Sequence record: OR062524
Strand: one strand, 5' to 3'
Length of the DNA stretch: 64,000 bases
Origin: Escherichia phage vB_EcoM_3A1_SA_NWU
Shown: positions 1,281-35,025 of the stretch, one piece after another
Numbering within the stretch: position 1 is the stretch's first letter
How the letters are laid out: the number at the start of each line of letters is the position of its first letter
Notes under the pieces: generated by a model
Databases searched by the model: none
Seen by the model: the letters and a program-made list of their open reading frames with translations, nothing else
Told to the model about the DNA's origin: nothing
Made by a program: the position numbers and the translations under genes

Positions 1281-2273
1281 TTAAATCTTCTTACTCCACC
1301 ATTGAGGGTTGTTTAAGTACCATTCAATCGTTGAGTAGAGATCTTGTTCAAATGTAGAGTTTGCACTCCAACCCAGTTCAGACTCTATTTTAGAAGGATT
1401 GATTTCATAACGCAAGTCATGTCCTTTACGATCTTCAACAAAAGTTATCAAGTTGGAAGAAGGGTAGGTTCCTGCTTCTGGATGTACAGCATCCATGTAG
1501 TCACAAACCATATAGATGATCTCCATATTGGTTTTGGGATTACGTGTTCCAACATTATACGTTTGACCTGGTTCTCCACCTGTTGCCACTTGAAGAATAG
1601 CTCGCGCATGATCCTCAACAAAAAGCCAGTCTCGCACCTGATCGCCTTTACCATACACCGGAATCTCTTTATTCGTCAAGATACTTGTGATGATTTTTGG
1701 GATCAGCTTTTCTGGATGTTGATAAGGTCCAAAGTTATTGGAGCAGTTGGTTATCACAACAGGTAAACCGTAGGTACGGTACCAAGCTTTCACAAGATGG
1801 TCAGATGCTGCCTTAGACGCACTGTACGGGCTTGAAGGGGCATAAGCTGTCTCTTCGGTAAAGGGAACGCCAGAGTCTGCCATATCGCCGTACACTTCGT
1901 CTGTGGAGACATGTACGAACATCTTAAGTTTATTTTTTGGGAGGAGCCTTGCAGCTTCCAATAAATTGTATGTACCAATAATATTGGAGTCGATGAAAAC
2001 TCGTGGATTCTTGATAGAATTATCCACATGACTCTCTGCCGCTAAGTGAATGATGAAATCGGGATTGCACTCTACTACTAAACTTTTGACCTGGGTTTCG
2101 TTTGCCAAATCTGTTATGCTTAGTTTAACGTGAGTGATATCGCCTACATTCTCAATATCTGCTGCATAGCCCATCTTATCAACGACAAAAACTTCGTTAT
2201 TGGGATCTTGACAAAGAGAGCGCACCACGGCACTCCCAATAAAACCAAGACCACCTGTTACCAGATAGCGCAT
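1281..2273 (-). CDS. rmlB: dTDP-glucose 4,6-dehydratase (RmlB)
   Basis: 330 aa; Rossmann GGLGFIGS, catalytic YSASK motif, short-chain dehydratase length. Confidence 0.9.
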
Positions 2274-13668: not shown

Positions 13669-14394
13669 TTACTTATTAATAATACCTGCAATATTAGGTT
13701 TGACAAAGGTCGATGGTTTCATGATCTTACCTTTATCATCAAAGAACACATACACTTTCTGTTTTTCATTATAAACAGCATGAACACCAGTGTATGCCCC
13801 TTCTGGACGATTGGCATTTCGTTCTTCAATTGCAGCGCATTCTTGTGCAATGGCTGAATCGATATCCGAAGTTTTCCAAGTTTTCAGCAACTGTTGTTTA
13901 GTTGGATACTTGGAATCATTACTTTTCAATACCTCTTTAATAACTTTCTTTTCTGGATATTTTGAACGGATTAGAGTGTCACGAGACATACGCATAATAC
14001 CAGCAGCCATTAGTGCCATTTGAACTGGCTCTGTAAATGTTTGTTCCAAAGCATCAAAATCAGTATACACAGTTGGAGTAAAAACATCGCCTACAGCATA
14101 GTCCAAGAAATTCATCGTATGTTCTTCACCAAAGAACATGTAGGTCAGATAACTGGATACTACAAAAATATCCGCTGCTGCATCCAAGAGTTCTACATGA
14201 TCGTTTACTTTCGCGGCTGTTTCATACTCTTTAAGCTCTTCACGAACGAATCCGATTTGGGACATAAATAGCTCTTGAGTGAATTCAGGTTGTTCACCAC
14301 CTCGTGCTTTAGCATTCCAATCAATCACGTGCTTCGCTGCATTTTTGAAAAATTCAGTATCGAACTTAATATCTTTAAAAAAATTCTCGATCAT
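13669..14394 (-). CDS. putative MazG-like nucleoside triphosphate pyrophosphohydrolase
   Basis: 241 aa; REELKEYETAAKVNDHVELLDAAADI resembles the EExxE...D metal-binding helix of all-alpha NTP pyrophosphatases. Confidence 0.35.
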   Translation of the reverse strand: MIENFFKDIKFDTEFFKNAAKHVIDWNAKARGGEQPEFTQELFMSQIGFVREELKEYETAAKVNDHVELLDAAADIFVVSSYLTYMFFGEEHTMNFLDYAVGDVFTPTVYTDFDALEQTFTEPVQMALMAAGIMRMSRDTLIRSKYPEKKVIKEVLKSNDSKYPTKQQLLKTWKTSDIDSAIAQECAAIEERNANRPEGAYTGVHAVYNEKQKVYVFFDDKGKIMKPSTFVKPNIAGIINK

Positions 14395-20898: not shown

Positions 20899-21091
20899 TT
20901 ACTACCTCCATACGATCTAAAAAGTCATTCACAAATCTCCAGTAACGTTGACCTGTTCTAAGATCTTCATAGATAACCACAGGATCAAACACTTTAGATA
21001 TTCCGGCAGGTTTTGGAAATTCCACTACCGTATATAAACCACCTTTTGCTACACAAGAATAGGTTACGCCTGTAATTGGATAGTTGCTCAT
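20852..21091 (-). CDS. hypothetical protein (79 aa)
   Basis: ORF track. Confidence 0.4.
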   Translation of the reverse strand: MSNYPITGVTYSCVAKGGLYTVVEFPKPAGISKVFDPVVIYEDLRTGQRYWRFVNDFLDRMEVVSGENTEEVIKAKERY

Positions 21092-21395: not shown

Positions 21396-21702
21396 CTTTA
21401 ACCACCTCCAATTGCCTTTCGAGTTTGACTTTGTTTGAGAACTGATAATGACACAACTTACATTGCATGTCAACAATCTGATCGTGATTTAACCCTACAA
21501 TTTTAACTTCCTTTGCACCATCCCATTCCAAATACTCAAAGCCATCCAAATGAGTACTCTTGTCCAACAAAAATGCTATCTGCTGCCATTCGATCTGAAT
21601 GTCATTTAAATGATATGCTGCACAGAAGATATCCTCGTAGTAAAAGACGATCATTGTCATTGCTTCGTCCAGCACAACTACCTCTTGTCTTGTAAATCTC
21701 AT
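21379..21702 (-). CDS. hypothetical protein (107 aa), first gene of the leftward unit
   Basis: ORF track. Confidence 0.5.
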   Translation of the reverse strand: MRFTRQEVVVLDEAMTMIVFYYEDIFCAAYHLNDIQIEWQQIAFLLDKSTHLDGFEYLEWDGAKEVKIVGLNHDQIVDMQCKLCHYQFSNKVKLERQLEVVKDDSTN

Positions 21703-21956
21703 TCTAGCCTCCTAAACGCGTCTCTGACGCACTTTTTATATATAAGATGATAAATCACCTTACCTAGTAAGTGAACTTGCTCTACGAGCCTCTTATGAAG
21801 CTTATGTTATAGGCTATACTATTGCTACCTGTTTAAGCAAGGTTTTTGCACACAGAAAATAATTTTAATAAAACTTTTGACTTTTGTGTTCGAAGTATGC
21901 TACCCTAGAAATCTATTAACGAGCGCAGCGAGTTAAGGTTTTAGGTTGTTGATGTA

Positions 21957-21988
21957 GTACTCTGTACTCAAGTACTGTACTCCGTACT
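21957..21988. repeat. five GTACT repeats within 32 bp
   Basis: gtactctgtactcaagtactgtactccgtact. Confidence 0.8.
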
Positions 21989-21994
21989 AGATTA

Positions 21995-22028
21995 ATAATT
22001 ATTAAATATTAATAATAAATAATTATTA
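21995..22028. repeat. AT-rich block with two copies of the 10-bp palindrome AATAATTATT
   Basis: aataattattaaatattaataataaataattatt. Confidence 0.8.
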
Positions 22029-22122
22029 GATCTAACAAACAGGTACAGTGTATCAGAACTGGTACGTACAGATCAACTTCTATCAATTAAAAATAAAATA
22101 ATAAATTATTATAAATAATACT

Positions 22123-22136
22123 TGATCTATAGATCA
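22123..22136. repeat. perfect 14-bp palindrome TGATCTATAGATCA
   Basis: Directly visible, 45 bp upstream of the first rightward gene. Confidence 0.85.
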
Positions 22137-22182
22137 GTATGAAGTACAGTACGGAACATCTTAACAAGAATGGAGGTGTGCA

Positions 22183-22368
22183 ATGATTAGCGAGAATCCG
22201 TGCAAATGGCATCATGTACCTATTAAAGATTGTATGTCTTGTAATCCACGTTCTATTTATAACATTGCATCTTATGACGATGACAATGTGTTAGACGATG
22301 ATGAAGGCTGGGAGGATTTAGATTGGACTGGTTATGAAACCAAAAAGGATAAAATTATTCCTAGTTGA
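22183..22368 (+). CDS. hypothetical protein (61 aa)
   Basis: GGAGGTG RBS. Confidence 0.5.
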   Translation: MISENPCKWHHVPIKDCMSCNPRSIYNIASYDDDNVLDDDEGWEDLDWTGYETKKDKIIPS

Positions 22369-22405
22369 CTTAAGATATCCTTCGTGCTAAACTAGAAGTG
22401 AGGAG

Positions 22406-22657
22406 ATGCCGATCACTCCCCATTTGGGGTTCGAAGGATATATGCAAAATAGTTTTTATTTTAGGTGCCGTGCTTGTAATAGGCATTTGACAAACCACTC
22501 CAGACGTGATAAAAATGGAGTCATCAAGGAATCAGACCTCTGTTCTATTTGCACAGGTTTGGCTTTTGATGATAGTCCCGAAAGGGTTTATCAGCATCAA
22601 TGTATAACAGACGTTCTCGTGTCAAACTTGGTAGAGGACGAACAACTAACAGATTAG
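22406..22657 (+). CDS. small zinc-finger protein (83 aa)
   Basis: GAGGAG RBS; CRACNRH...CSICTG. Confidence 0.5.
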   Translation: MPITPHLGFEGYMQNSFYFRCRACNRHLTNHSRRDKNGVIKESDLCSICTGLAFDDSPERVYQHQCITDVLVSNLVEDEQLTD

Positions 22658-22665
22658 GAGGAACA

Positions 22666-22914
22666 ATGTCTCTATTAGAAAAACACGTGTTTGAAGATGG
22701 TAACGGCAATGCAGTTTTTCTTTTCCATCCAGAAAAATACACATCTGAAAACAATGGTACAACTTCTATTGTAATCACTAAAGATGTTAAAGTTATTGAT
22801 TTCTTGGCTCTGATGCGAGGGATGGATCTTGAAATTAACACTTTTAACGCAGAAGCTTTGGTTGTTGCTCTTCTGGAAAAGAAAGATAGTGAAGAAGTAG
22901 CAGAATATGCTTAA
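22666..22914 (+). CDS. hypothetical protein (82 aa from ATG with AGGAGG RBS; track gives 22600..22914)
   Basis: Internal start MSLLEKHVFEDGNGN preceded by ttAGGAGGaacaATG. Confidence 0.45.
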   Translation: MSLLEKHVFEDGNGNAVFLFHPEKYTSENNGTTSIVITKDVKVIDFLALMRGMDLEINTFNAEALVVALLEKKDSEEVAEYA

Positions 22915-22921
22915 ATAACTA

Positions 22922-22951
22922 TTGACAAACGTATCCTTCATATGTTAGGAT
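22922..22951 (+). promoter_or_regulatory. possible sigma70-like promoter TTGACA-N18-TAGGAT ahead of tRNA cluster
   Basis: attgacaaacgtatccttcatatgttaggat; weak -10. Confidence 0.3.
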
Positions 22952-22964
22952 ACGTTCATCAAGT

Positions 22965-23154
22965 GTGGTAACAGGGTCGTTGACTTTTGTTAAGAGGGGC
23001 TTGCACTGCGGTAGTGTTAGAGACTACTTCTTCAGAGGTTAGCTACCAAAGAGGAAAAGGAATAGTCTCGGCTCAAGAACTTTTACGCTGAAAGTTGGGC
23101 TTGGTCTTAGAGAATGTAGCGGTTCTCTACAATCGTCAGCGTCTCTGTTACCAC
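22965..23154 (+). ncRNA. candidate structured RNA or processing leader immediately 5' of first tRNA
   Basis: 10-nt terminal pairing gtggtaacag (22965..22974) with ctgttaccac (23145..23154) encloses about 170 nt with internal hairpins; no ORF. Confidence 0.3.
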
Positions 23155-23160
23155 ATTTAT

Positions 23161-23235
23161 GGCCCTGTAGCTCAATGGGAGAGCTGTCGGCTCATAACCG
23201 ATAGGTAGCTGGATCGAAACCAGCCAGGGCCACCA
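23161..23235 (+). tRNA. tRNA-Met (anticodon CAU), CCA encoded
   Basis: Manual fold: acceptor GGCCCTG/CAGGGCC, anticodon loop CTCATAA, T-arm GCTGG-ATCGAAA-CCAGC. Confidence 0.8.
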
Positions 23236-23237
23236 AA

Positions 23238-23312
23238 GTCTTTATGGTGTAATGGATAGCACAGGAGTCTTCTAAACTCTTAGTCAAGGTTCGATTCCTT
23301 GTAAAGACACCA
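23238..23312 (+). tRNA. tRNA-Arg (anticodon UCU), CCA encoded
   Basis: Manual fold: acceptor GTCTTTA/TAAAGAC, anticodon loop CTTCTAA, T-loop TTCGATT. Confidence 0.75.
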
Positions 23313-23508
23313 GAACATTTTAACATGAATTAGCTCAAGTGATTTGAACCCACTACTGATCATGGTGGCAGAGAATGAGGCAAGTATGTCAGACATTATA
23401 AACAAAGGCCACGGTTATATTAGAAGACATAAATGCTCGAAGAGCACCGTTCGTGGAGAACGGGGGTTGGTGGAGTCACCATTCATGGTAAAATGTTTTA
23501 AAAAACTA

Positions 23509-23538
23509 TTGACAACAAACATTATTTTATGTTAGATT
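23509..23538 (+). promoter_or_regulatory. possible internal promoter TTGACA-N18-TAGATT before tRNA-Ser
   Basis: ttgacaacaaacattattttatgttagatt, about 10 nt before tRNA start. Confidence 0.35.
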
Positions 23539-23546
23539 ATAAGTAT

Positions 23547-23637
23547 GGAAGGGCAAATCGATGTGGCGACGAAAACGGTCTTGAAAACCGCCGAGCTTGA
23601 AAGAGCCTTGGGAGTTCGACTCTCCCTCCTTCCGCCA
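23547..23637 (+). tRNA. tRNA-Ser (anticodon UGA), long variable arm, CCA encoded
   Basis: Manual fold: acceptor GGAAGGG/TCCTTCC, anticodon loop CTTGAAA, T-arm GGGAG-TTCGACT-CTCCC. Confidence 0.75.
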
Positions 23638-23642
23638 GATTA

Positions 23643-23728
23643 GGTAGATTGGTGAAATGGTAGCCACGACAGTTTGCTAAACTGTAGTCGGAAACGGCGT
23701 GTAGGTTCGAGTCCTACATCTACCGCCA
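23643..23728 (+). tRNA. tRNA-Ser (anticodon GCU), long variable arm, CCA encoded
   Basis: Manual fold: acceptor GGTAGAT/ATCTACC, anticodon loop TTGCTAA, variable-arm hairpin with GAAA loop. Confidence 0.75.
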
Positions 23729-23858
23729 AGTTCTTTTTAATGTAGCTTACTTTAGCAGAGTAAATCTTCGGCAAGTGGCGGTAACCACTTTACCGATACC
23801 TCATAGTTAGTGGTGTGAACACTGGCTATTTTAAAAAGAATTTAAATATTAGTATTTA

Positions 23859-23946
23859 GGTGAGTTAATTCCGTAGGGGTAGCGGGGCAGACTGTAAATC
23901 TGTTATCATTGCGATTCGGGTGGTTCGACTCCATCACTCACCACCA
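23859..23946 (+). tRNA. tRNA-Tyr (anticodon GUA), class II, atypical 5-nt connector before D-stem
   Basis: Acceptor GGTGAGT/ACTCACC 7/7, anticodon loop CTGTAAA, T-loop TTCGACT, CCA encoded. Confidence 0.6.
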
Positions 23947-23952
23947 AATTAA

Positions 23953-24038
23953 GATGAGTTGGCTGAATGGTTTAAGCGGCGGACTGTTAATCCGTGTTCG
24001 AAAGAACAATATAGGTTCGAATCCTATACTCATCGCCA
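23953..24038 (+). tRNA. class II tRNA (long variable arm) with anticodon GUU (nominally Asn); identity uncertain
   Basis: Acceptor GATGAGT/ACTCATC, 3-bp D-stem, anticodon loop CTGTTAA, variable hairpin GTTC-GAAA-GAAC, T-arm ATAGG-TTCGAAT-CCTAT, CCA encoded. Confidence 0.55.
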
Positions 24039-24045
24039 GAATTAT

Positions 24046-24122
24046 GGACTTGTAGAGTTAAGGTAAACCCCCAGTCGCCAATAGGCTTCTGGAATTGCAG
24101 GTATCGAATCCTGCCGAGTCCC
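24046..24122 (+). ncRNA. tRNA-like element with intact acceptor pairing but no canonical anticodon arm
   Basis: GGACTTG...CGAGTCC acceptor pairing and T-arm-like GCAGG-tatcgaat-CCTGC (8-nt loop); no 5-bp/7-nt anticodon hairpin found by hand. Confidence 0.3.
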
Positions 24123-24128
24123 AGCATT

Positions 24129-24203
24129 GCTCCTATAGTATAATGGCTATTACAACGGTTTTGTAATCCGTGGATCTCTGTTCGATTCAGTGTGGGAGCA
24201 CCA
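24129..24203 (+). tRNA. tRNA-Thr (anticodon UGU), CCA encoded
   Basis: Acceptor GCTCCTA/TGGGAGC, anticodon loop TTTGTAA, T-loop TTCGATT. Confidence 0.65.
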
Positions 24204-24519
24204 ACACAACATTAAGAGCACTGTGATTGATCGTCGTATCCTGTGCACAAGGTCTGCTCGAAAGACAGTGTTCTTAGTATTGTGTTGATCACAAAAAGAG
24301 TCACCCGAAACTTGACCGGAGTAGGGTTGGATGGGGCAAAATGAGAAGCGGCTCTCCCATCGACAGCAACGAAGAATAATATTTGACTTTGGTTTTGTAT
24401 TATTTTAAGTTAGCTTACCGAACGTAGGGCTAGTCACCCAACGGGATACTCGTCACTGTCCCAATCAATAAAAGTCTTGACAACAAATAGTAAAATGTAG
24501 TATAGTAAATATATATGGC
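24204..24519 (+). ncRNA. 315-nt non-coding spacer with long-range pairing; candidate stable RNA
   Basis: aagagcactgtg ... acagtgttctt pairing, repeated agtcaccc(g/a)aac motif; no ORF or tRNA fold. Confidence 0.25.
24477..24506 (+). promoter_or_regulatory. sigma70-like promoter TTGACA-N18-TATAGT before tRNA-Gly
   Basis: cttgacaacaaatagtaaaatgtagtatagt. Confidence 0.4.
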
Positions 24520-24593
24520 GTTCTTGGTGTAGCGGTAGCATTCCGTCCTTCCAAGTCGGCGGCACGAGTTCGATCCTCGTAGAACGCTCCAAA
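24520..24593 (+). tRNA. tRNA-Gly (anticodon UCC), CCA encoded
   Basis: Acceptor GCGTTCT/AGAACGC, anticodon loop CTTCCAA, T-arm ACGAG-TTCGATC-CTCGT, discriminator U. Confidence 0.75.
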
Positions 24594-24689
24594 TTATTTA
24601 ATAAAGGGTTGCCAGAAAACTTTCTCTTTTACTCATGGTTTTCTCCTTCTCTCACACTTCTTCTGGTTGCCCTTCATTAAATGATTTAT

Positions 24690-24765
24690 TGGTTTGTAGT
24701 GTAGTCCGGTAGCACACGACACTTTGACTGTCGTAGGTTTGGTTCAAATCCAGACAGACCAGCCA
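24690..24765 (+). tRNA. tRNA-Gln (anticodon UUG), U1-A72, CCA encoded
   Basis: Acceptor TGGTTTG/CAGACCA, anticodon stem CGACA/TGTCG with loop CTTTGAC. Confidence 0.75.
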
Positions 24766-24858
24766 TATAACAAAGGTGAGTCACTACCTTAAGTGTGAAG
24801 TTAAAAACGAGGAGCCGCCGAACACTTTCTTTTGCGGTGTACCTTTAGAATGTTATCA

Positions 24859-24935
24859 CGGGACGTAGCACAGCTTGGTAGTGCGCTCGCTTTGGGAGCG
24901 AGAGGTCGAGTGTTCGAATCACTCCGTCCCGACCA
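24859..24935 (+). tRNA. tRNA-Pro (anticodon UGG), CCA encoded
   Basis: Acceptor CGGGACG/CGTCCCG, anticodon stem CTCGC/GCGAG loop TTTGGGA. Confidence 0.8.
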
Positions 24936-24941
24936 ATTAAA

Positions 24942-25015
24942 TGTTTCGTAGTTCAATGGTAGAACCCACGACTGATAATCGTGAGACACAAGTTCGATTC
25001 TTGTCGAAACAACCA
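24942..25015 (+). tRNA. tRNA-Ile (anticodon GAU), CCA encoded
   Basis: Acceptor TGTTTCG/CGAAACA, anticodon stem CACGA/TCGTG loop CTGATAA. Confidence 0.75.
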
Positions 25016-25017
25016 GT

Positions 25018-25077
25018 TTCCCGTTAGACTTACAGGATAAGAGTTCCACAGCTTATTGTGATGCTGGTTCGAATCCA
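25018..25077 (+). ncRNA. tRNA-like element (good acceptor and T-arm, degenerate anticodon arm)
   Basis: TTCCCGT...ACGGGAT pairing, T-arm GCTGG-TTCGAAT-CCAGC, no canonical anticodon hairpin. Confidence 0.3.
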
Positions 25078-25094
25078 GCACGGGATACATAATA

Positions 25095-25173
25095 GCGGGA
25101 TAGAGGAGTCTGGTCGTCCTCGCCAGTTTCATATGCTGGAGATCATCGGTTCAAATCCGATTCCCGCCTCCAA
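25095..25173 (+). tRNA. tRNA with CAU anticodon (second Met-type or lysidine-Ile), A1/C72 mismatch, CCA encoded
   Basis: Acceptor AGCGGGA/TCCCGCC, anticodon stem CCAGT/GCTGG loop TTCATAT. Confidence 0.65.
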
Positions 25174-28852: not shown

Positions 28853-30418
28853 GTGTCAACAGGAAAAAGAACGTACACTAAAAAGTCAGAATACTGGGAC
28901 AAAGGTGCTGCAAATAAAGCTGCTCTCTCTCCAACAAAAGAGGCAGAGAAAGAGAAAACGTTACTCCTGTCACCTGAAATAGGAACGATCGGATTAAACT
29001 CAATCAAAGCATTTACGAATTTCATGCAACCTTATGAGACTCGTTTCCCAGAATGTATTCGAACTTTTAAAGAGATGGGTGAAGACCCTGATGTAGCTAC
29101 TGCTCTTGATGCTACGTATATCTTTGTAGATAGAGCATTCTTTGATTTTAAGATAAAATACAATGTAAGCTCGGCAAAGTCAAGAAAAGCTGCTAAGTTT
29201 ATCGATTATATGTTACGTAATATGCAAGCACCTCTACGTCAATATGTTAGATCACTTTTGACATATAAGCAATACGGGTTTGCATTCGCAGAAAAAGTTT
29301 ATGAGTTGGATGAAGATCCTAAGAGTCCTTACTTTGGGTATTGGCGATTAACTAAGCTGGCTTTTAGACCACAAGATACTCTTCACATGGCTCAACCTTT
29401 TACATATTCGGCAGACGGACGTTCTATCTTGTCTGTTAACCAGAATATCACCAATACAATGTTAGCCCCAGGTAATACAACTTTAGAAACTGGTATTAAA
29501 GAAATTCCTTTCAGTAAAGTTTTATTTGTTGGTAGCAACATTACAGAGAATAACCCACTAGGAGTTAGTCCGCTTTTAGCTGTATATCGTAGCTGGCGTG
29601 AAAAATCTCTTATTCAGGAATTTGAGGTTATTGGGGTATCTAAAGATTTAGGCGGTATGCCAGTTCTTAAGGTTCCAAGTGACATTCTAAACAGGGCATC
29701 TTTAGATCCTGCTGGGGATGAAGCACAATCTCTTCGAGTTCTCCAAGCCAACATCGCTAACCTGCACTCTGGTGAGCAAGCCTACATGGTATTGCCTTCA
29801 GACGTTTATGAAGGTACAGTGATGCGTCAATACGATCTTGTATTCCAAGGTGTTGATGGCACGGGTAAACAGTTTGACACTCAAGCACTAATCAAACAAC
29901 GCAAACTGGATATTTATAACCGCTTTGGTGCGGGTGTGTTGATTATGGGTGATGGTGATGCAGGAAGTTTTGCGCTTTCTGACAACAAACAAACACTATT
30001 GTCTCATTTTATTGAGCGAGATGTAGATATTGTTGTAGAAGCTATAAACTCTCAACTGATCCCTCAAACACTACGACTAAACAATATCTTCCTTTCTGAT
30101 GAAGATATGCCTAAGTTTGTCAGTGGTGAAATGGGTGATCCTGATATTGAAGTAAATGCTAAAGCTATTCAGCAGTTGGTAGCCTCTGGTGCAATACCTT
30201 TAACCCCAGAAGTTATTAACGAGTTCCTTGAAAAAATTGGTTTTGAATATCGCATCCCTGACGATATTGTTGCCAATAAAGAGAAATTCTTTGAATTCAT
30301 GGATAACTATATGCCTGACAAAACTTCACGATCAGGAGATGGTTTAGCTACAGCAGGGACTGGAACATCTGATACTGTTTCTGCTTTAGATCCTTCAGCA
30401 CAAAACCTGTCGAATTAA
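28853..30418 (+). CDS. portal protein (putative)
   Basis: 521 aa; GTG start with GGAGG RBS; position directly after terminase; size typical. Confidence 0.55.
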   Translation: MSTGKRTYTKKSEYWDKGAANKAALSPTKEAEKEKTLLLSPEIGTIGLNSIKAFTNFMQPYETRFPECIRTFKEMGEDPDVATALDATYIFVDRAFFDFKIKYNVSSAKSRKAAKFIDYMLRNMQAPLRQYVRSLLTYKQYGFAFAEKVYELDEDPKSPYFGYWRLTKLAFRPQDTLHMAQPFTYSADGRSILSVNQNITNTMLAPGNTTLETGIKEIPFSKVLFVGSNITENNPLGVSPLLAVYRSWREKSLIQEFEVIGVSKDLGGMPVLKVPSDILNRASLDPAGDEAQSLRVLQANIANLHSGEQAYMVLPSDVYEGTVMRQYDLVFQGVDGTGKQFDTQALIKQRKLDIYNRFGAGVLIMGDGDAGSFALSDNKQTLLSHFIERDVDIVVEAINSQLIPQTLRLNNIFLSDEDMPKFVSGEMGDPDIEVNAKAIQQLVASGAIPLTPEVINEFLEKIGFEYRIPDDIVANKEKFFEFMDNYMPDKTSRSGDGLATAGTGTSDTVSALDPSAQNLSN

Positions 30419-30446
30419 AAATATTTAATATTTTTTAATTTTTCTA

Positions 30447-30475
30447 TTGACAAAACAACAAATATCCTGTAGACT
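30447..30475 (+). promoter_or_regulatory. sigma70-like promoter TTGACA-N17-TAGACT
   Basis: attgacaaaacaacaaatatcctgtagact. Confidence 0.5.
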
Positions 30476-30511
30476 AAGATTTATGGGATATCTGTTTTTA
30501 AGAGGTTTCAA

Positions 30512-30991
30512 ATGGAACTCAATAAAGATACACTGTGGGAACTCTTCAAAACCTTCGCTGGTTTTAAAGAGAATTCTGAATCCCAACAAGATTCTATACC
30601 ATCTCAAAAACCTGAAACTTTAGTCAAACAAAATAAATTTGATGAAGAAAAGATGCAGGTTATTGAGGTCTTGTATTGTCCACCTGAAGAAGACGATCTC
30701 CACGGAGAGCGCATGTCTGATTTGGAAATCAGGAAGATGGTTGACAACTTCAATGAGAATATTACCAACATTAGTGGTAATCTTGGTCACATGAAGAACA
30801 CCGATAAATTTTCTCCAATTAAAGCTTGGGTAAATGAAGTCGATTGTTACATTGGTGACGAACTCGTTGTGGAAGGAACTCCCCTCGTTAAAATCCAATT
30901 CAACGACCCTGAATTATATCAAGCTCGTAAAGACGGCGTTCTTAAAGGTTTGAGTATAGGCGCAATGGGCGTTAAAGTCAAGAAGGACTAA
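30512..30991 (+). CDS. putative prohead protease
   Basis: 159 aa; C-terminal LKGLSIGAMG resembles the GxSIGF segment of HK97-family prohead proteases as recalled; sits between portal and scaffold. Confidence 0.4.
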   Translation: MELNKDTLWELFKTFAGFKENSESQQDSIPSQKPETLVKQNKFDEEKMQVIEVLYCPPEEDDLHGERMSDLEIRKMVDNFNENITNISGNLGHMKNTDKFSPIKAWVNEVDCYIGDELVVEGTPLVKIQFNDPELYQARKDGVLKGLSIGAMGVKVKKD

Positions 30992-34537: not shown

Positions 34538-35025
34538 TGGAAAGTGAGATCTTACCAGGTGACGATACAGATTGGGAAACCATTATCAAAAAGATGATGG
34601 ACCTTGAACAAGTTCAAATCGAAGCTGGTTTTTTAACAAACAAAAGGCATCCTGAATCAGATCTCACTATTCCTGCAATAGCAGCTATTCAACAATATGG
34701 TAATGAAACAAATAACATACCTGCTCGCCCTTTTATAACAGATGGTGCTGTTATCTCACAGAACGATATCGCTAAAAAGATGAAGCAGGTGTTTGCAAAT
34801 TACTTAATGAATAATGTCGGGTTAGCTGTTTTTGAGCCTATAGCGAGAGCCTCTAGAGAAGGAATAGCTCAAGCGATTGCAATGCAACGTTATCGTCCTT
34901 TATCTCCTGTGACAATTAAGATACGACAAGATAAAGGCAACTATTCTAATCATATCTTAATAGATACGGCACACATGATAAATGCAATCGAAACAAAAAT
35001 CACAAAAAGCAAGTCTAAAAAATAA
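34537..35025 (+). CDS. putative head-tail joining protein
   Basis: 162 aa; TAATG coupling with upstream gene. Confidence 0.4.
   Translation: MESEILPGDDTDWETIIKKMMDLEQVQIEAGFLTNKRHPESDLTIPAIAAIQQYGNETNNIPARPFITDGAVISQNDIAKKMKQVFANYLMNNVGLAVFEPIARASREGIAQAIAMQRYRPLSPVTIKIRQDKGNYSNHILIDTAHMINAIETKITKSKSKK

What the first reader, a model, noticed from the sequence alone, without database searches (positions are those of the whole stretch)
21950..22140. Divergent control region with GTACT repeats and perfect palindromes: candidate origin or operator cluster
Between the leftward and rightward gene blocks lie five GTACT copies in 32 bp, an AT-rich block with two copies of AATAATTATT, further GGTACAG/GGTACGT motifs and a perfect 14-bp palindrome TGATCTATAGATCA. 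Repeated short binding-site-like motifs next to an AT-rich unwinding-type element are typical of replication origins or repressor operators.
Basis: seen in the sequence. Interest (0 to 1): 0.55.

Follow-up and report, generated by a model that had tools for sequence, protein, structure and literature searches.

The report
Phage divergent early-promoter control region
The flagged stretch is the main two-way "start" region of a large E. coli phage: a tight cluster of host-type promoters built around two pure A/T blocks, plus an unexplained cluster of GTAC repeats; it may also serve as a replication start, but nothing here shows that.

Summary
The window is a Phapecoctavirus (phAPEC8/ESCO13-like myovirus). 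The finding lies in the 480-bp gap (21703-22182) between a leftward and a rightward transcription unit. GTAC is the most avoided 4-bp palindrome in the genome (157 seen, 460 expected), yet 10 copies lie in 196 bp (P about 1e-11). The two A/T-only runs are the longest in the genome, and the interval is its least stable duplex.

Most motifs resolve into sigma-70-type promoters conserved in position across genera. P1 (21877-21906, rightward) is followed by a covariation-supported GCGNAGC mini-hairpin. PL (22076-22047, leftward) accounts for the GGTACAG/GGTACGT motifs. P2 (22122-22150, rightward) has a -35 box and spacer that contain the 14-bp palindrome. A/T block 2 lies between PL and P2 as a shared UP-type element.

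The 5xGTACT array and A/T block 1 lie between convergent P1 and PL. Both are absent from the sister lineage, so they are accessory, and their role is unresolved (operator or roadblock is my best guess). GC skew turns at all four strand switches, so it says nothing about an origin. A promoter-plus-unwinding-element origin (T4/T7 style) is not excluded. Verdict: mostly ordinary, moderately interesting.

The parts
21747..21775 (-). PL0: candidate proximal leftward promoter (TTCACT, 17-nt spacer, TATCAT), about 45 nt before the first leftward gene
   Evidence: Consensus scans. A promoter-like site at the same relative place was found in phiWec188, L016 and 05F01. It is weak by consensus, so this is an inference.
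21856..21906 (+). P1: strong rightward promoter. It has an 18-nt A/T run (21856-21873), -35 TTGACT (21877-21882), an 18-nt spacer ending in TG, and -10 TACCCT (21901-21906)
   Evidence: The hexamers are invariant in 12 close relatives. The promoter is conserved in phiWec, phi92, L016 and L069, with a different -10 in 05F01. There are three copies of this promoter class per genome.
21916..21936 (+). Hairpin just downstream of the P1 start: TTAAC / GAGCGCAGCGA / GTTAA. The 13-mer CGAGCGCAGCGAG (21920-21932) contains a GCGNAGC mini-hairpin core flanked by tandem G.A pairs
   Evidence: Single copy in the window. Covariation over 10 cassettes: 5 of 7 Watson-Crick pairs show compensatory changes, score 0.301 against 0.155 in shuffles (0/500), and all slid registers score lower. 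The core equals the two DNA mini-hairpin forms GCGNAGC and GCGNNAGC (PMC13037366).
21957..21988 (+). 5x GTACT array (unit spacing 7, 8, 5, 7), including two AGTACT palindromes. It lies between convergent P1 and PL
   Evidence: The array is absent in the phiWec179-190 type. phAPEC8 has 4 copies and dw-ec has 3. The 14-nt GTAGTACTCTGTAC is shared with Klebsiella phage 05F01. Function is not established.
21991..22028 (.). A/T block 1: 38-nt A/T-only run. It is itself an inverted repeat (18-nt arms, 89% complementary) and contains both AATAATTATT copies
   Evidence: It is the least stable 50-bp duplex of the genome. Its length varies among relatives and it is absent in the phiWec type.
22047..22076 (-). 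PL: leftward promoter. -35 TTGATC (22076-22071), an 18-nt spacer ending in TG, -10 TACACT (22052-22047). A weak rightward -10-like TACAGT (22044-22049) overlaps it
   Evidence: The same arrangement (a leftward promoter abutting the A/T block) occurs in phiWec188 (TTGATC-18-TG-TACTAT), phi92 (TTGTTA-17-TG-TAGTAT) and L016 (TTGATT-17-TATAGT). The -10 is invariant in 12 relatives.
22085..22120 (.). A/T block 2: 36-nt A/T-only run lying between the -35 boxes of PL and P2 (45 bp apart). Read as back-to-back UP-type upstream elements
   Evidence: The only other A/T run of 20 nt or more in the genome (30413-30443) also abuts a TTGACA-17-TAGACT site. Its length is polymorphic.
22122..22150 (+). P2: rightward promoter of the first rightward gene. 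-35 TTGATC (22122-22127), 17-nt spacer, -10 TACAGT (22145-22150). The 14-bp palindrome 22123-22136 is its -35 box and spacer, and GTACAGTAC (22144-22152) overlaps the -10 and start
   Evidence: TTGACT-17/18-TAGAGT sits at the same place in phiWec, phi92 and 05F01, and TTGATC-17-TACACT in L016. In each case it lies 30-39 nt before the start codon and directly after an A/T block. The hexamers are invariant except for a deletion in EP57.
22171..22185 (+). Ribosome-binding site GGAGG and ATG of the first rightward gene (61 aa, CxxH...CxxC, acidic tail)
   Evidence: The protein has no Pfam match.

Best explanation
The interval is the core of the phage's main bidirectional early-transcription control region. 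It is read by the host sigma-70 RNA polymerase.

Four promoter-like sites form two back-to-back pairs:
- PL0 (leftward) and P1 (rightward) on the left.
- PL (leftward) and P2 (rightward) on the right, with the PL/P2 pair sharing A/T block 2 as adjacent UP-type upstream elements.

P1 fires rightward through a short stable hairpin. P2 sits directly before the first rightward gene, which leads into the tRNA cluster. PL and PL0 serve the leftward DNA-metabolism block.

P1 and PL face each other about 127 bp apart. The GTACT array and A/T block 1 lie in that overlap. My best guess is that the array is a binding or roadblock site that tunes this convergent pair. It is an accessory add-on, not a core part.

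What is shown: the motif positions, their statistics, and conservation of the promoter layout across genera. What is inferred: promoter activity, the UP-element function, and any role of the array.
For: 1. Promoter consensus and position. P1 is TTGACT-18-TG-TACCCT, PL is TTGATC-18-TG-TACACT and P2 is TTGATC-17-TACAGT, each preceded by 86-100% A/T.
2. The same order (P1, spacer, PL, A/T block, P2, gene) is found in phiWec188, phi92 and L016, and partly in 05F01, although the spacer sequences cannot be aligned.
3. Promoter hexamers are invariant among 12 close relatives apart from one PL -35 change in phAPEC8 and the deletion of P2 in EP57. The palindrome, the array and the A/T lengths vary.
4. 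The P1 class recurs three times in this genome and twice in relatives. The other copies are in ordinary gaps about 95-150 nt before a gene, so it is a reusable promoter-plus-leader cassette.
5. The only other long A/T run in the genome also abuts a -35 box.
6. A family of TTGAC-N-TGnTA...T promoters follows at 22365, 22922, 23509 and 25330 in the tRNA region.
7. Relatives are reported to use sigma-70-like early promoters with UP elements (PMC7344957; PMC3606486).
Against: - No transcript ends have been mapped for any member of this group.
- Promoter-like matches are common in A/T-rich DNA: the consensus scan found 7 against 6.3 expected in shuffles. P2 and PL0 are only 8-9 of 12 by consensus.
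- 36-38 nt of pure A/T is longer than a standard UP element.
- A/T block 1 has no good promoter on either side.
- The GTAC cluster in a GTAC-depleted genome, and the 14-nt identity with 05F01, are not explained by promoters alone.
- A promoter region can also be an origin, so this reading does not exclude that one.
Confidence: 0.6

Rival explanations
1. Transcription-activated replication origin of the T4 oriF/oriG or T7 primary-origin type. P1 (and/or the divergent PL/P2 pair) drives transcription into, or negative supercoiling of, the genome's weakest duplex. An R-loop or opened A/T block then primes DNA synthesis. The mini-hairpin on the displaced strand could act as a priming signal. This is compatible with the promoter reading rather than exclusive of it.
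For: - A strong promoter is followed within 80 bp by the least stable duplex in ~151 kb.
- A/T block 2 lies between divergent promoters.
- The region sits at a divergent junction that is a local cumulative-skew minimum.
- GCGNAGC/GCGNNAGC mini-hairpins are reported at phage and plasmid priming sites (G4, St-1, alpha3, RSF1010 ssiA) (PMC13037366).
- No origin is known for this phage group (PMC3606486).
- No initiator protein is evident, as expected for this origin type.
Against: - Skew turns at all four strand switches, with the global minimum at the other junction, so it tracks transcription (PMC3606486).
- The array and A/T block 1 are missing in the sister lineage.
- A/T lengths are freely polymorphic.
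- The P1 cassette also occurs at ordinary gene starts.
- There are no replication data of any kind.
Confidence: 0.2
2. Operator cluster. The GTAC-containing motifs (the 5xGTACT array, GGTACAG, GTACGTAC, GTACAGTAC) are sites for one phage or host DNA-binding protein. That protein would block P2 (-10 and start), PL (spacer and start) and elongation from P1 at the same time, giving an early shut-off or a switch between the two directions.
For: - Ten GTACs lie in 196 bp of a genome that otherwise avoids GTAC.
- They overlap the -10 and start of P2 and the spacer and start of PL, and lie at about +45 to +75 of P1.
- Several are parts of short dyads (AGTACT twice, GTACGTAC).
- GTAGTACTCTGTAC is shared with 05F01 in an otherwise unalignable spacer, and L016 has GTAC at the -10 of both PL and P2.
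Against: - No regulator was identified: the flanking small proteins have no Pfam match.
- The array is absent in phiWec-type phages, which keep 82-83% identical flanking genes.
- Copy number varies from 3 to 5, and the third copy is mutated in phAPEC8.
- Unit spacing is irregular (5-8 bp).
- phi92 has ATAC where this phage has GTAC.
- No match to Fis or IHF consensus sequences.
Confidence: 0.25
3. The array and A/T block 1 are a functionally neutral, lineage-specific duplication or slippage product of the PL / A/T block / P2 module. They are tolerated because they sit in a non-coding leader.
For: - Both are absent in the sister lineage.
- Copy number and lengths are polymorphic.
- Block 1 and block 2 are 72% alike over 39 nt, each followed by GATC and a TACAGT.
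- Block 1 is followed by a P2-like spacer and -10 without a -35 box.
- Extra GTAC sites clustered at one spot add little restriction risk (inference).
Against: - GTAC is strongly selected against elsewhere.
- The 14-nt identity with 05F01 spans genera.
- The array is intact in most of about 64 genomes at 95-100% identity, although that is too little divergence to show constraint.
Confidence: 0.15
4. Packaging (pac) site or terminal-repeat boundary of the virion DNA.
For: Short repeats plus GATC sites resemble some pac sites. One record (nieznany) is broken inside this gap, and one Seunavirus record (KE22) ends about 520 nt before its homologue of the first rightward gene, although its divergent junction was not located.
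Against: The relative BME3 has 342-bp direct terminal repeats (PMC12210895). The start of its record maps to a different non-coding region, about 149.3-151.1 kb of this genome. It shows no similarity to the phi92 junction locus.
Confidence: 0.03

Closest known systems
Sigma-70 promoters with UP elements (E. coli rrnB P1; early promoters of T4, T5 and the Certrevirus/rV5 group)
   Same: A -35 and -10 box with 17-18 bp spacing, an extended -10 TG, and an A/T-rich tract directly upstream. Several promoters sit in tandem ahead of a tRNA/early gene block. CB7 and CR3 relatives are reported with AAAA-N-TGTTGAC-N-TATAAT early promoters (PMC7344957).
   Different: The A/T tracts are 36-38 nt of pure A/T, and one is shared by two back-to-back promoters. 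The -10 boxes are unusual (TACCCT, TACAGT, TACACT). Activity has not been measured.
Convergent (face-to-face) promoter switches of temperate coliphages 186 and P2 (pR/pL; Pe/Pc). From my own knowledge.
   Same: Two promoters fire towards each other across a short overlap (here about 127 bp), with candidate operator repeats between or over them.
   Different: This is a virulent phage with no repressor or lysogeny genes in view. The interference and any regulator are inferred, not shown.
T4 oriF(uvsY)/oriG(34) and the T7 primary origin (a promoter plus a downstream A/T-rich unwinding element, primed by the transcript). From my own knowledge.
   Same: A strong promoter is followed within 100 bp by the most easily melted DNA of the genome. 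No initiator protein or iterons are needed. The site lies in an early or middle control region.
   Different: There is no evidence of R-loops or initiation here. The promoters are plain sigma-70 type. Part of the A/T-rich DNA is dispensable in a sister lineage.
DNA mini-hairpins GCGNAGC / GCGNNAGC (G4, St-1 and alpha3 complementary-strand origins; RSF1010 ssiA; N4 early promoters) (PMC13037366)
   Same: The element after P1-class promoters has exactly these cores (GCGCAGC, GCGAAGC, GCGATAGC). It has a C-G closing pair and a sheared G.A pair, and its stem covaries.
   Different: Here it lies just downstream of a sigma-70 promoter in double-stranded DNA, on the non-template strand and in the RNA. 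It occurs three times per genome. Whether it acts as DNA or as RNA is unknown.
GATC cluster of E. coli oriC and P1 ori (Dam/SeqA control). From my own knowledge.
   Same: A short palindromic tetranucleotide is locally about 45-fold denser than the genome average, next to an easily melted A/T segment.
   Different: The motif is GTAC. No cognate methyltransferase was found in the phage (crude screen). Modification is suggested only indirectly, from a Nanopore-only assembly.

Membership tests
Sigma-70 promoter with UP element | -35 and -10 hexamers resembling TTGACA and TATAAT with 16-18 bp spacing, A at -11 and T at -7 | tested here: met
   P1 scores 9 (including TG), PL scores 9 (including TG), P2 scores 8 and PL0 scores 9 of 12.
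Sigma-70 promoter with UP element | A/T-rich tract from about -40 to -60 | tested here: met
   The upstream 22 nt are 86-100% A/T for P1, PL and P2. A third long A/T run abuts another -35 box at 30447.
Sigma-70 promoter with UP element | Conserved position relative to genes in relatives | tested here: met
   The same order and orientation occur in phiWec188, phi92 and L016. 05F01 lacks a clear PL. P2 is 30-39 nt before the start codon in all.
Sigma-70 promoter with UP element | Mapped transcription start or measured promoter activity | not testable with these tools
   No transcript data were found for this phage group.
Iteron-type origin (lambda, P1, theta plasmids) | Three or more direct repeats of about 17-22 bp, phased with the helix | tested here: not met
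   The repeats are 5-nt cores spaced 5-8 bp apart. No longer direct-repeat family was found.
Iteron-type origin (lambda, P1, theta plasmids) | Adjacent gene for an origin-binding initiator | tested here: not met
   The four flanking small ORFs have no Pfam match. The winged-helix ORF next to iterons in the distant lineage L025 has no homologue in this genome.
Iteron-type origin (lambda, P1, theta plasmids) | A/T-rich unwinding element beside the repeats | tested here: met
   Least stable 50-bp and 200-bp duplex of the genome.
Iteron-type origin (lambda, P1, theta plasmids) | DnaA boxes or IHF sites | tested here: inconclusive
   There is one match to the relaxed box TTWTNCACA, at 21844 upstream of P1. 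There is no exact IHF or Fis consensus match.
Promoter-plus-unwinding-element origin (T4 oriF/oriG, T7 primary origin) | Promoter directing transcription into an easily melted segment | tested here: met
   The P1 start is near 21913, and A/T block 1 is at 21991-22028.
Promoter-plus-unwinding-element origin (T4 oriF/oriG, T7 primary origin) | Persistent RNA-DNA hybrid and initiation of DNA synthesis at the site | not testable with these tools
   Needs DRIP, marker-frequency or 2D-gel data.
Promoter-plus-unwinding-element origin (T4 oriF/oriG, T7 primary origin) | Strand-composition switch attributable to replication | tested here: inconclusive
   Skew turns here but also at the three other strand switches. 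All genes in each unit are co-oriented, so transcription and replication effects cannot be separated.
Repressor operator cluster | Repeated recognition motif overlapping promoter core elements | tested here: met
   GTAC motifs lie over the -10 and start of P2 and the spacer and start of PL, and downstream of P1.
Repressor operator cluster | Cognate DNA-binding regulator encoded nearby or identifiable | tested here: not met
   No DNA-binding domain was found in the flanking ORFs.
Repressor operator cluster | Motif conserved where the promoters are conserved | tested here: not met
   The array is absent in the phiWec type. phi92 has ATAC variants. The palindrome is broken in 4 of 12 relatives.
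pac site / terminal repeat | Coincides with the physical ends of virion DNA | tested here: not met
   The record of BME3, which has 342-bp terminal repeats, starts in a region that maps to about 149.3-151.1 kb of this genome, not to this gap. This assumes the record starts at the terminus.
Rfam RNA families | Match to a curated covariance model | tested here: not met
   Only the tRNA at 23161 matched in 21400-23200 at E <= 1.

The most novel reading that the evidence does not exclude
The gap is the (or a) replication origin of Stephanstirmvirinae phages, of a transcription-activated kind. P1 fires across a GCGNAGC DNA mini-hairpin that forms on the displaced strand and marks a priming site. 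An R-loop, or supercoil-driven opening, then forms in the genome's weakest duplex. The GTAC cluster acts like the GATC cluster at oriC, as a set of modification-sensitive sites that time initiation. The two other P1-class cassettes would be secondary origins, as in T4.
Probability: 0.12. Interest if true: 0.75.

Novelty: new member of a known kind. Interest (0 to 1): 0.4.

Why it matters
rV5-, phi92- and phAPEC8-type myoviruses are among the E. coli phages most often isolated and are widely proposed for therapy. Their transcription programme and replication origin remain unmapped (PMC3606486; PMC8594841).

This analysis gives a concrete, testable map of the main divergent control region:
- Four promoters with coordinates.
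- A conserved promoter-plus-hairpin cassette.
- One well-defined accessory element, the GTACT array with A/T block 1, whose removal should reveal whether it regulates transcription or replication.

If the origin reading proved true, it would be the first origin defined for this subfamily. It would also link DNA mini-hairpins to initiation on a double-stranded phage genome. If not, the region is still a useful source of strong, compact bidirectional promoters.

Tried and rejected
- Rfam scan of 21400-23200 found nothing but a tRNA.
- No ORF of 20 aa or more lies on the plus strand between P1 and P2, so a leader peptide or small gene is unlikely.
- A scan of viral contigs for the 14-mer GTAGTACTCTGTAC returned 112 unrelated contigs, about the chance rate, so it was uninformative.
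- A metagenome scan with the invariant hairpin segment gave only 3 loci and no intermediate junction types.
- I first read the BI-EHEC ATACT variants as natural operator variants. I rejected that because 30 of 51 GTAC sites genome-wide are altered in this Nanopore-only assembly.
- The terminal-repeat or pac idea was rejected through BME3.
- Fis and IHF consensus scans found no exact match, and there was one relaxed DnaA-box match.
- A crude motif screen for a phage DNA methyltransferase found none.
- The winged-helix ORF plus GGTTTCCGTAC repeats in the distant loci L025 and L027 looked like an initiator with iterons, but it has no homologue in this genome.
- The leader RNA 21913-22182 folds better than shuffles (z = -3.95). 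The signal comes from palindromes that work equally at the DNA level, and the sequence cannot be aligned across genera, so I do not claim a structured RNA.
- Substitution density among 12 close relatives is too low (3-7% of sites in every segment) to show differential constraint.
- A resemblance of GTACTAG to a TrpR half-operator was considered from memory, but only a half-site is present. I did not pursue it.
Full report
**Identity and setting**

The window matches Phapecoctavirus genomes (Stephanstirmvirinae; ESCO13, phAPEC8 and vB_EcoM_10C3_SA_NWU) at 99-100% identity. The finding lies in a 480-bp non-coding gap, 21703-22182.
- To the left is a block of leftward genes, the first with its ATG at 21702.
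- To the right is a block of rightward genes, the first with its ATG at 22183. Ten tRNA genes follow at 23161-25172.

I assembled a whole genome of this species from record pieces plus the window. It has four transcription units, two divergent junctions and two convergent points. The divergent junctions are this gap, which I call J1, and a 117-bp gap, J2.

**Observation check**

The GTAC clustering is far beyond chance.
- GTAC is the most depleted 4-bp palindrome in the genome: 157 observed against 460 expected, ratio 0.34.
- Ten copies lie in 21957-22152, with a corrected P of about 1e-11.
- The only other cluster (6 copies) is inside coding sequence next to rml-type sugar genes.

The two A/T-only runs (38 and 36 nt) are the longest in ~151 kb. 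The interval is the least stable 50-bp and 200-bp duplex of the genome.

A perfect 14-bp palindrome is not rare on its own: 6 in the window against 4.7 expected.

**What the motifs are**

Reading the gap beside its counterparts in other lineages shows one conserved layout. I compared the phiWec179/188 type, phi92, UAB_1, Klebsiella phage 05F01 and the IMG/VR contigs L015-L019. Their spacer sequences cannot be aligned.

From left to right in the window:
1. **PL0**: a weak leftward promoter at 21775-21747.
2. **P1**: a strong rightward promoter at 21877-21906 (TTGACT, 18-nt spacer ending in TG, TACCCT) with an A/T run upstream.
3. **Hairpin**: 21916-21936.
4. **GTACT array**: 21957-21988.
5. **A/T block 1**: 21991-22028.
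6. **PL**: a leftward promoter. Its -35 is TTGATC (22076-22071), the spacer ends in TG, and its -10 is TACACT (22052-22047).
7. **A/T block 2**: 22085-22120.
8. **P2**: a rightward promoter. Its -35 is TTGATC (22122-22127) and its -10 is TACAGT (22145-22150). It lies 32 nt before the start codon.

- GGTACAG and GGTACGT fall in the start region and spacer of PL.
- The 14-bp palindrome is the -35 box and spacer of P2.
- GTACAGTAC overlaps the -10 box and start of P2.
- A/T block 2 fills the 45 bp between the -35 boxes of PL and P2. I read it as two adjacent UP-type elements.

Support for this reading:
- A back-to-back PL / A/T block / P2 arrangement recurs in phiWec188 (TTGATC-18-TG-TACTAT; TTGACT-18-TG-TAGAGT). 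It also recurs in phi92 (TTGTTA-17-TG-TAGTAT; TTGACT-17-TAGAGT) and L016 (TTGATT-17-TATAGT; TTGATC-17-TACACT).
- The only other A/T run of 20 nt or more in the genome (30413-30443) directly precedes TTGACA-17-TAGACT in a gap before a gene.
- Among 12 window-type relatives the P1 and P2 hexamers are invariant except for a 30-nt deletion of P2 in EP57. The PL -10 is invariant, and the PL -35 has one change in phAPEC8.
- In the same 12 relatives the palindrome is broken in four (22135 C>T in three, 22132 G>A in phAPEC8). The A/T blocks vary in length, and the array has 5, 4 or 3 intact copies.

**The P1 cassette and its hairpin**

P1 is one of three copies of a promoter class in this genome. Relatives carry two copies.
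- The extra copies in relatives sit in ordinary gaps between co-oriented genes, about 95 nt before a start codon, without A/T blocks or repeats.
- In this genome one extra copy has a 150-nt leader before a gene.
- The other extra copy points against the surrounding genes inside a 360-nt unannotated gap.

All copies carry CGAGC-GNA-GCGAG or CGAGC-GATA-GCGAG 13-16 nt after the -10 box (29 nt in 05F01). Over ten cassettes the hairpin is supported by covariation.
- 5 of 7 Watson-Crick pairs show compensatory changes, including G-C to A-T inside the 13-mer in 05F01.
- The tandem G.A pairs are invariant.
- The covariation score is 0.301 against 0.155 in shuffles (0 of 500), and all slid registers score lower.

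The cores equal the two "mini-hairpin DNA" forms, GCGNAGC and GCGNNAGC. A recent review places these at G4, St-1 and alpha3 priming sites, at RSF1010 ssiA and at N4 early promoters. It notes that the RNA versions are much less stable (PMC13037366). Whether the element acts as RNA (a 5' stabiliser or regulator) or as DNA on the non-template strand is open. Either way, it marks P1 as a real, reusable unit and shows that 21950-22140 lies in the transcribed leader of P1.

**The GTACT array and A/T block 1**

These lie in the ~127-bp overlap between convergent P1 (start near 21913) and PL (start near 22040).
- They are absent from the phiWec179-190 type. That type shares the P1 and hairpin segment exactly and has 82-83% identical flanking genes.
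- No intermediates were found in public metagenomes.
- They are therefore accessory to the basic design.

Three things argue against dismissing them:
- The 14-nt GTAGTACTCTGTAC recurs between two A/T blocks in 05F01, a different lineage of the subfamily with no genus assigned.
- phi92 carries ATACTCTATACT at the matching place.
- GTAC is otherwise selected against.

I could not identify a binding protein. The flanking small ORFs have no Pfam match, and there are no Fis or IHF matches. I treat "operator or roadblock in a convergent promoter pair" as the leading guess and neutral duplication as the fallback.

**Origin question**

Cumulative GC skew has a local minimum at 22,000. It also turns at all four strand switches, and its global minimum is at J2. 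The rV5 authors reached the same conclusion for their phage, and the origin is undefined in this group (PMC3606486).
- There are no iterons of origin type and no initiator gene.
- There is a single relaxed DnaA-box match.
- The physical genome ends are elsewhere. BME3's terminal-repeat end maps to a ~1.5-kb non-coding region near 149.3-151.1 kb.

What remains in favour is the layout: strong promoters firing into, and diverging around, the weakest duplex of the genome, with a DNA mini-hairpin of a kind seen at priming sites. That is the T4 oriF/oriG and T7 primary-origin design (from my own knowledge). I give it about 0.2. It would be an added function of the promoter region, not an alternative to it.

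**Side observation on GTAC modification**

In the BI-EHEC record, 30 of 51 homologous GTAC sites are changed, mostly to ATAC and some with indels, including inside genes.
- GTAC is the outlier among all 4-mers: 59% differ against a median of 6.5%.
- The genome was assembled from Nanopore reads only (PMC8686590).
- This is the signature of a modified base at GTAC in that DNA preparation.
- A crude motif screen finds no methyltransferase candidate in the phage, so the modification is more likely host-derived.
- It means the BI-EHEC variants of the array cannot be used as evidence on function. The same probably holds for dw-ec, a record from the same country with the same fragmentary annotation, whose sequencing method I did not check.
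- It also suggests that GTAC-specific restriction-modification shapes these genomes.

**Verdict**

The region is a compound, bidirectional early-promoter control region with UP-type A/T blocks. It is a known kind of element that has not been described for this phage group.

Two features are unexplained: the GTACT array, and the promoter-proximal mini-hairpin cassette. An origin role is possible but unsupported. Interest is moderate.

Noticed in passing
Outside the window: L108 ~14254-14316 (minus strand) and L109 ~34951-35013 (minus strand; OR062526 ~130,958-131,013): Two more copies of the P1-class promoter plus CGAGC-GATA-GCGAG hairpin. The copy at ~14.3 kb points against the surrounding rightward genes inside a 360-nt unannotated gap. 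It is followed by further C-GATA-G hairpins and one of the five least stable 200-bp stretches of the genome. It could be a non-coding or antisense RNA gene.
   Followed up: partly
L014 (BI-EHEC, OL505078 33000-82000) compared with the window: 59% of GTAC sites differ (mostly to ATAC, some with indels), against a median of 6.5% for all 4-mers, in a Nanopore-only assembly. This probably reflects base modification at GTAC in that virion DNA. No phage methyltransferase candidate was found by a crude motif screen.
   Followed up: partly
Whole genome; secondary cluster at window 1774-1973: GTAC is the most avoided 4-bp palindrome (obs/exp 0.34), followed by CCGG and GGCC (0.42) and CTAG (0.51). The only other GTAC cluster (6 in 200 bp) is in coding sequence next to rml-type dTDP-sugar genes, perhaps recently acquired.
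   Followed up: partly
window 30413-30478: The third-longest A/T-only run (31 nt) is immediately followed by TTGACA-17-TAGACT in the gap before the gene starting at 30512. It has the same design as A/T block 2 plus P2.
   Followed up: partly
window 22365-22397, 22922, 23509, 25330 (plus strand): A series of strong extended -10 promoter-like sites (TTGAC-N-TGnTA...T) lies through the small-gene and tRNA region. The site at 22365 shares TGCTAnnCTAGA with P1.
   Followed up: partly
L030-L107 (many IMG/VR contigs, e.g. L030, L031, L047, L066, L079, L082): The 13-mer CGAGCG(A/C/G)AGCGAG, flanked by complementary arms, recurs in unrelated viral contigs. These include a family of ~40% GC contigs with two copies in inverted orientation about 100 nt apart after TATACCCTATCCCCCCC. 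It may be a widely used stable hairpin module.
   Followed up: no
L025 ~1164-1760 and L027 (distant relatives): A 145-aa ORF with weak MarR-type winged-helix matches is followed by three or four GGTTTCCGTAC repeats and further GTAC motifs in a ~1-kb non-coding stretch. It looks like an initiator or regulator with iterons. There is no homologue in this genome.
   Followed up: partly
Outside the window: OR062526 ~151,050-151,980 plus 1-613 (L110, L108): A ~1.5-kb non-coding region, the largest in the genome. It is homologous to the start of the BME3 record (a phage with 342-bp terminal repeats). It contains Fur-box-like AATGATAATTATTCTCAT sequences and the second least stable 100-bp stretch. It is the likely terminus region and a rival place to look for an origin.
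   Followed up: partly
window 21718-21730: The hairpin GCGTCTCTGACGC lies immediately upstream of the ribosome-binding site of the first leftward gene, on its mRNA strand. It is conserved in the phiWec type.
   Followed up: no
window 200-21000 compared with OR062526: The window lacks about 591 nt that are present in OR062526 somewhere in this span. The coordinate offset is 32,000 at the window start and 32,591 at 21,000 and beyond.
   Followed up: no
L007 (anhysbys), L227 (UP17), L008 (EP57), L225: Small tandem duplications and deletions occur within the gap in relatives. AAGGTTTT is tripled after the hairpin in anhysbys. UP17 has a 7-nt duplication at the hairpin's 3' arm. EP57 has a 30-nt deletion that removes the P2 -10 box. 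L225 has a 10-nt duplication in A/T block 2.
   Followed up: partly
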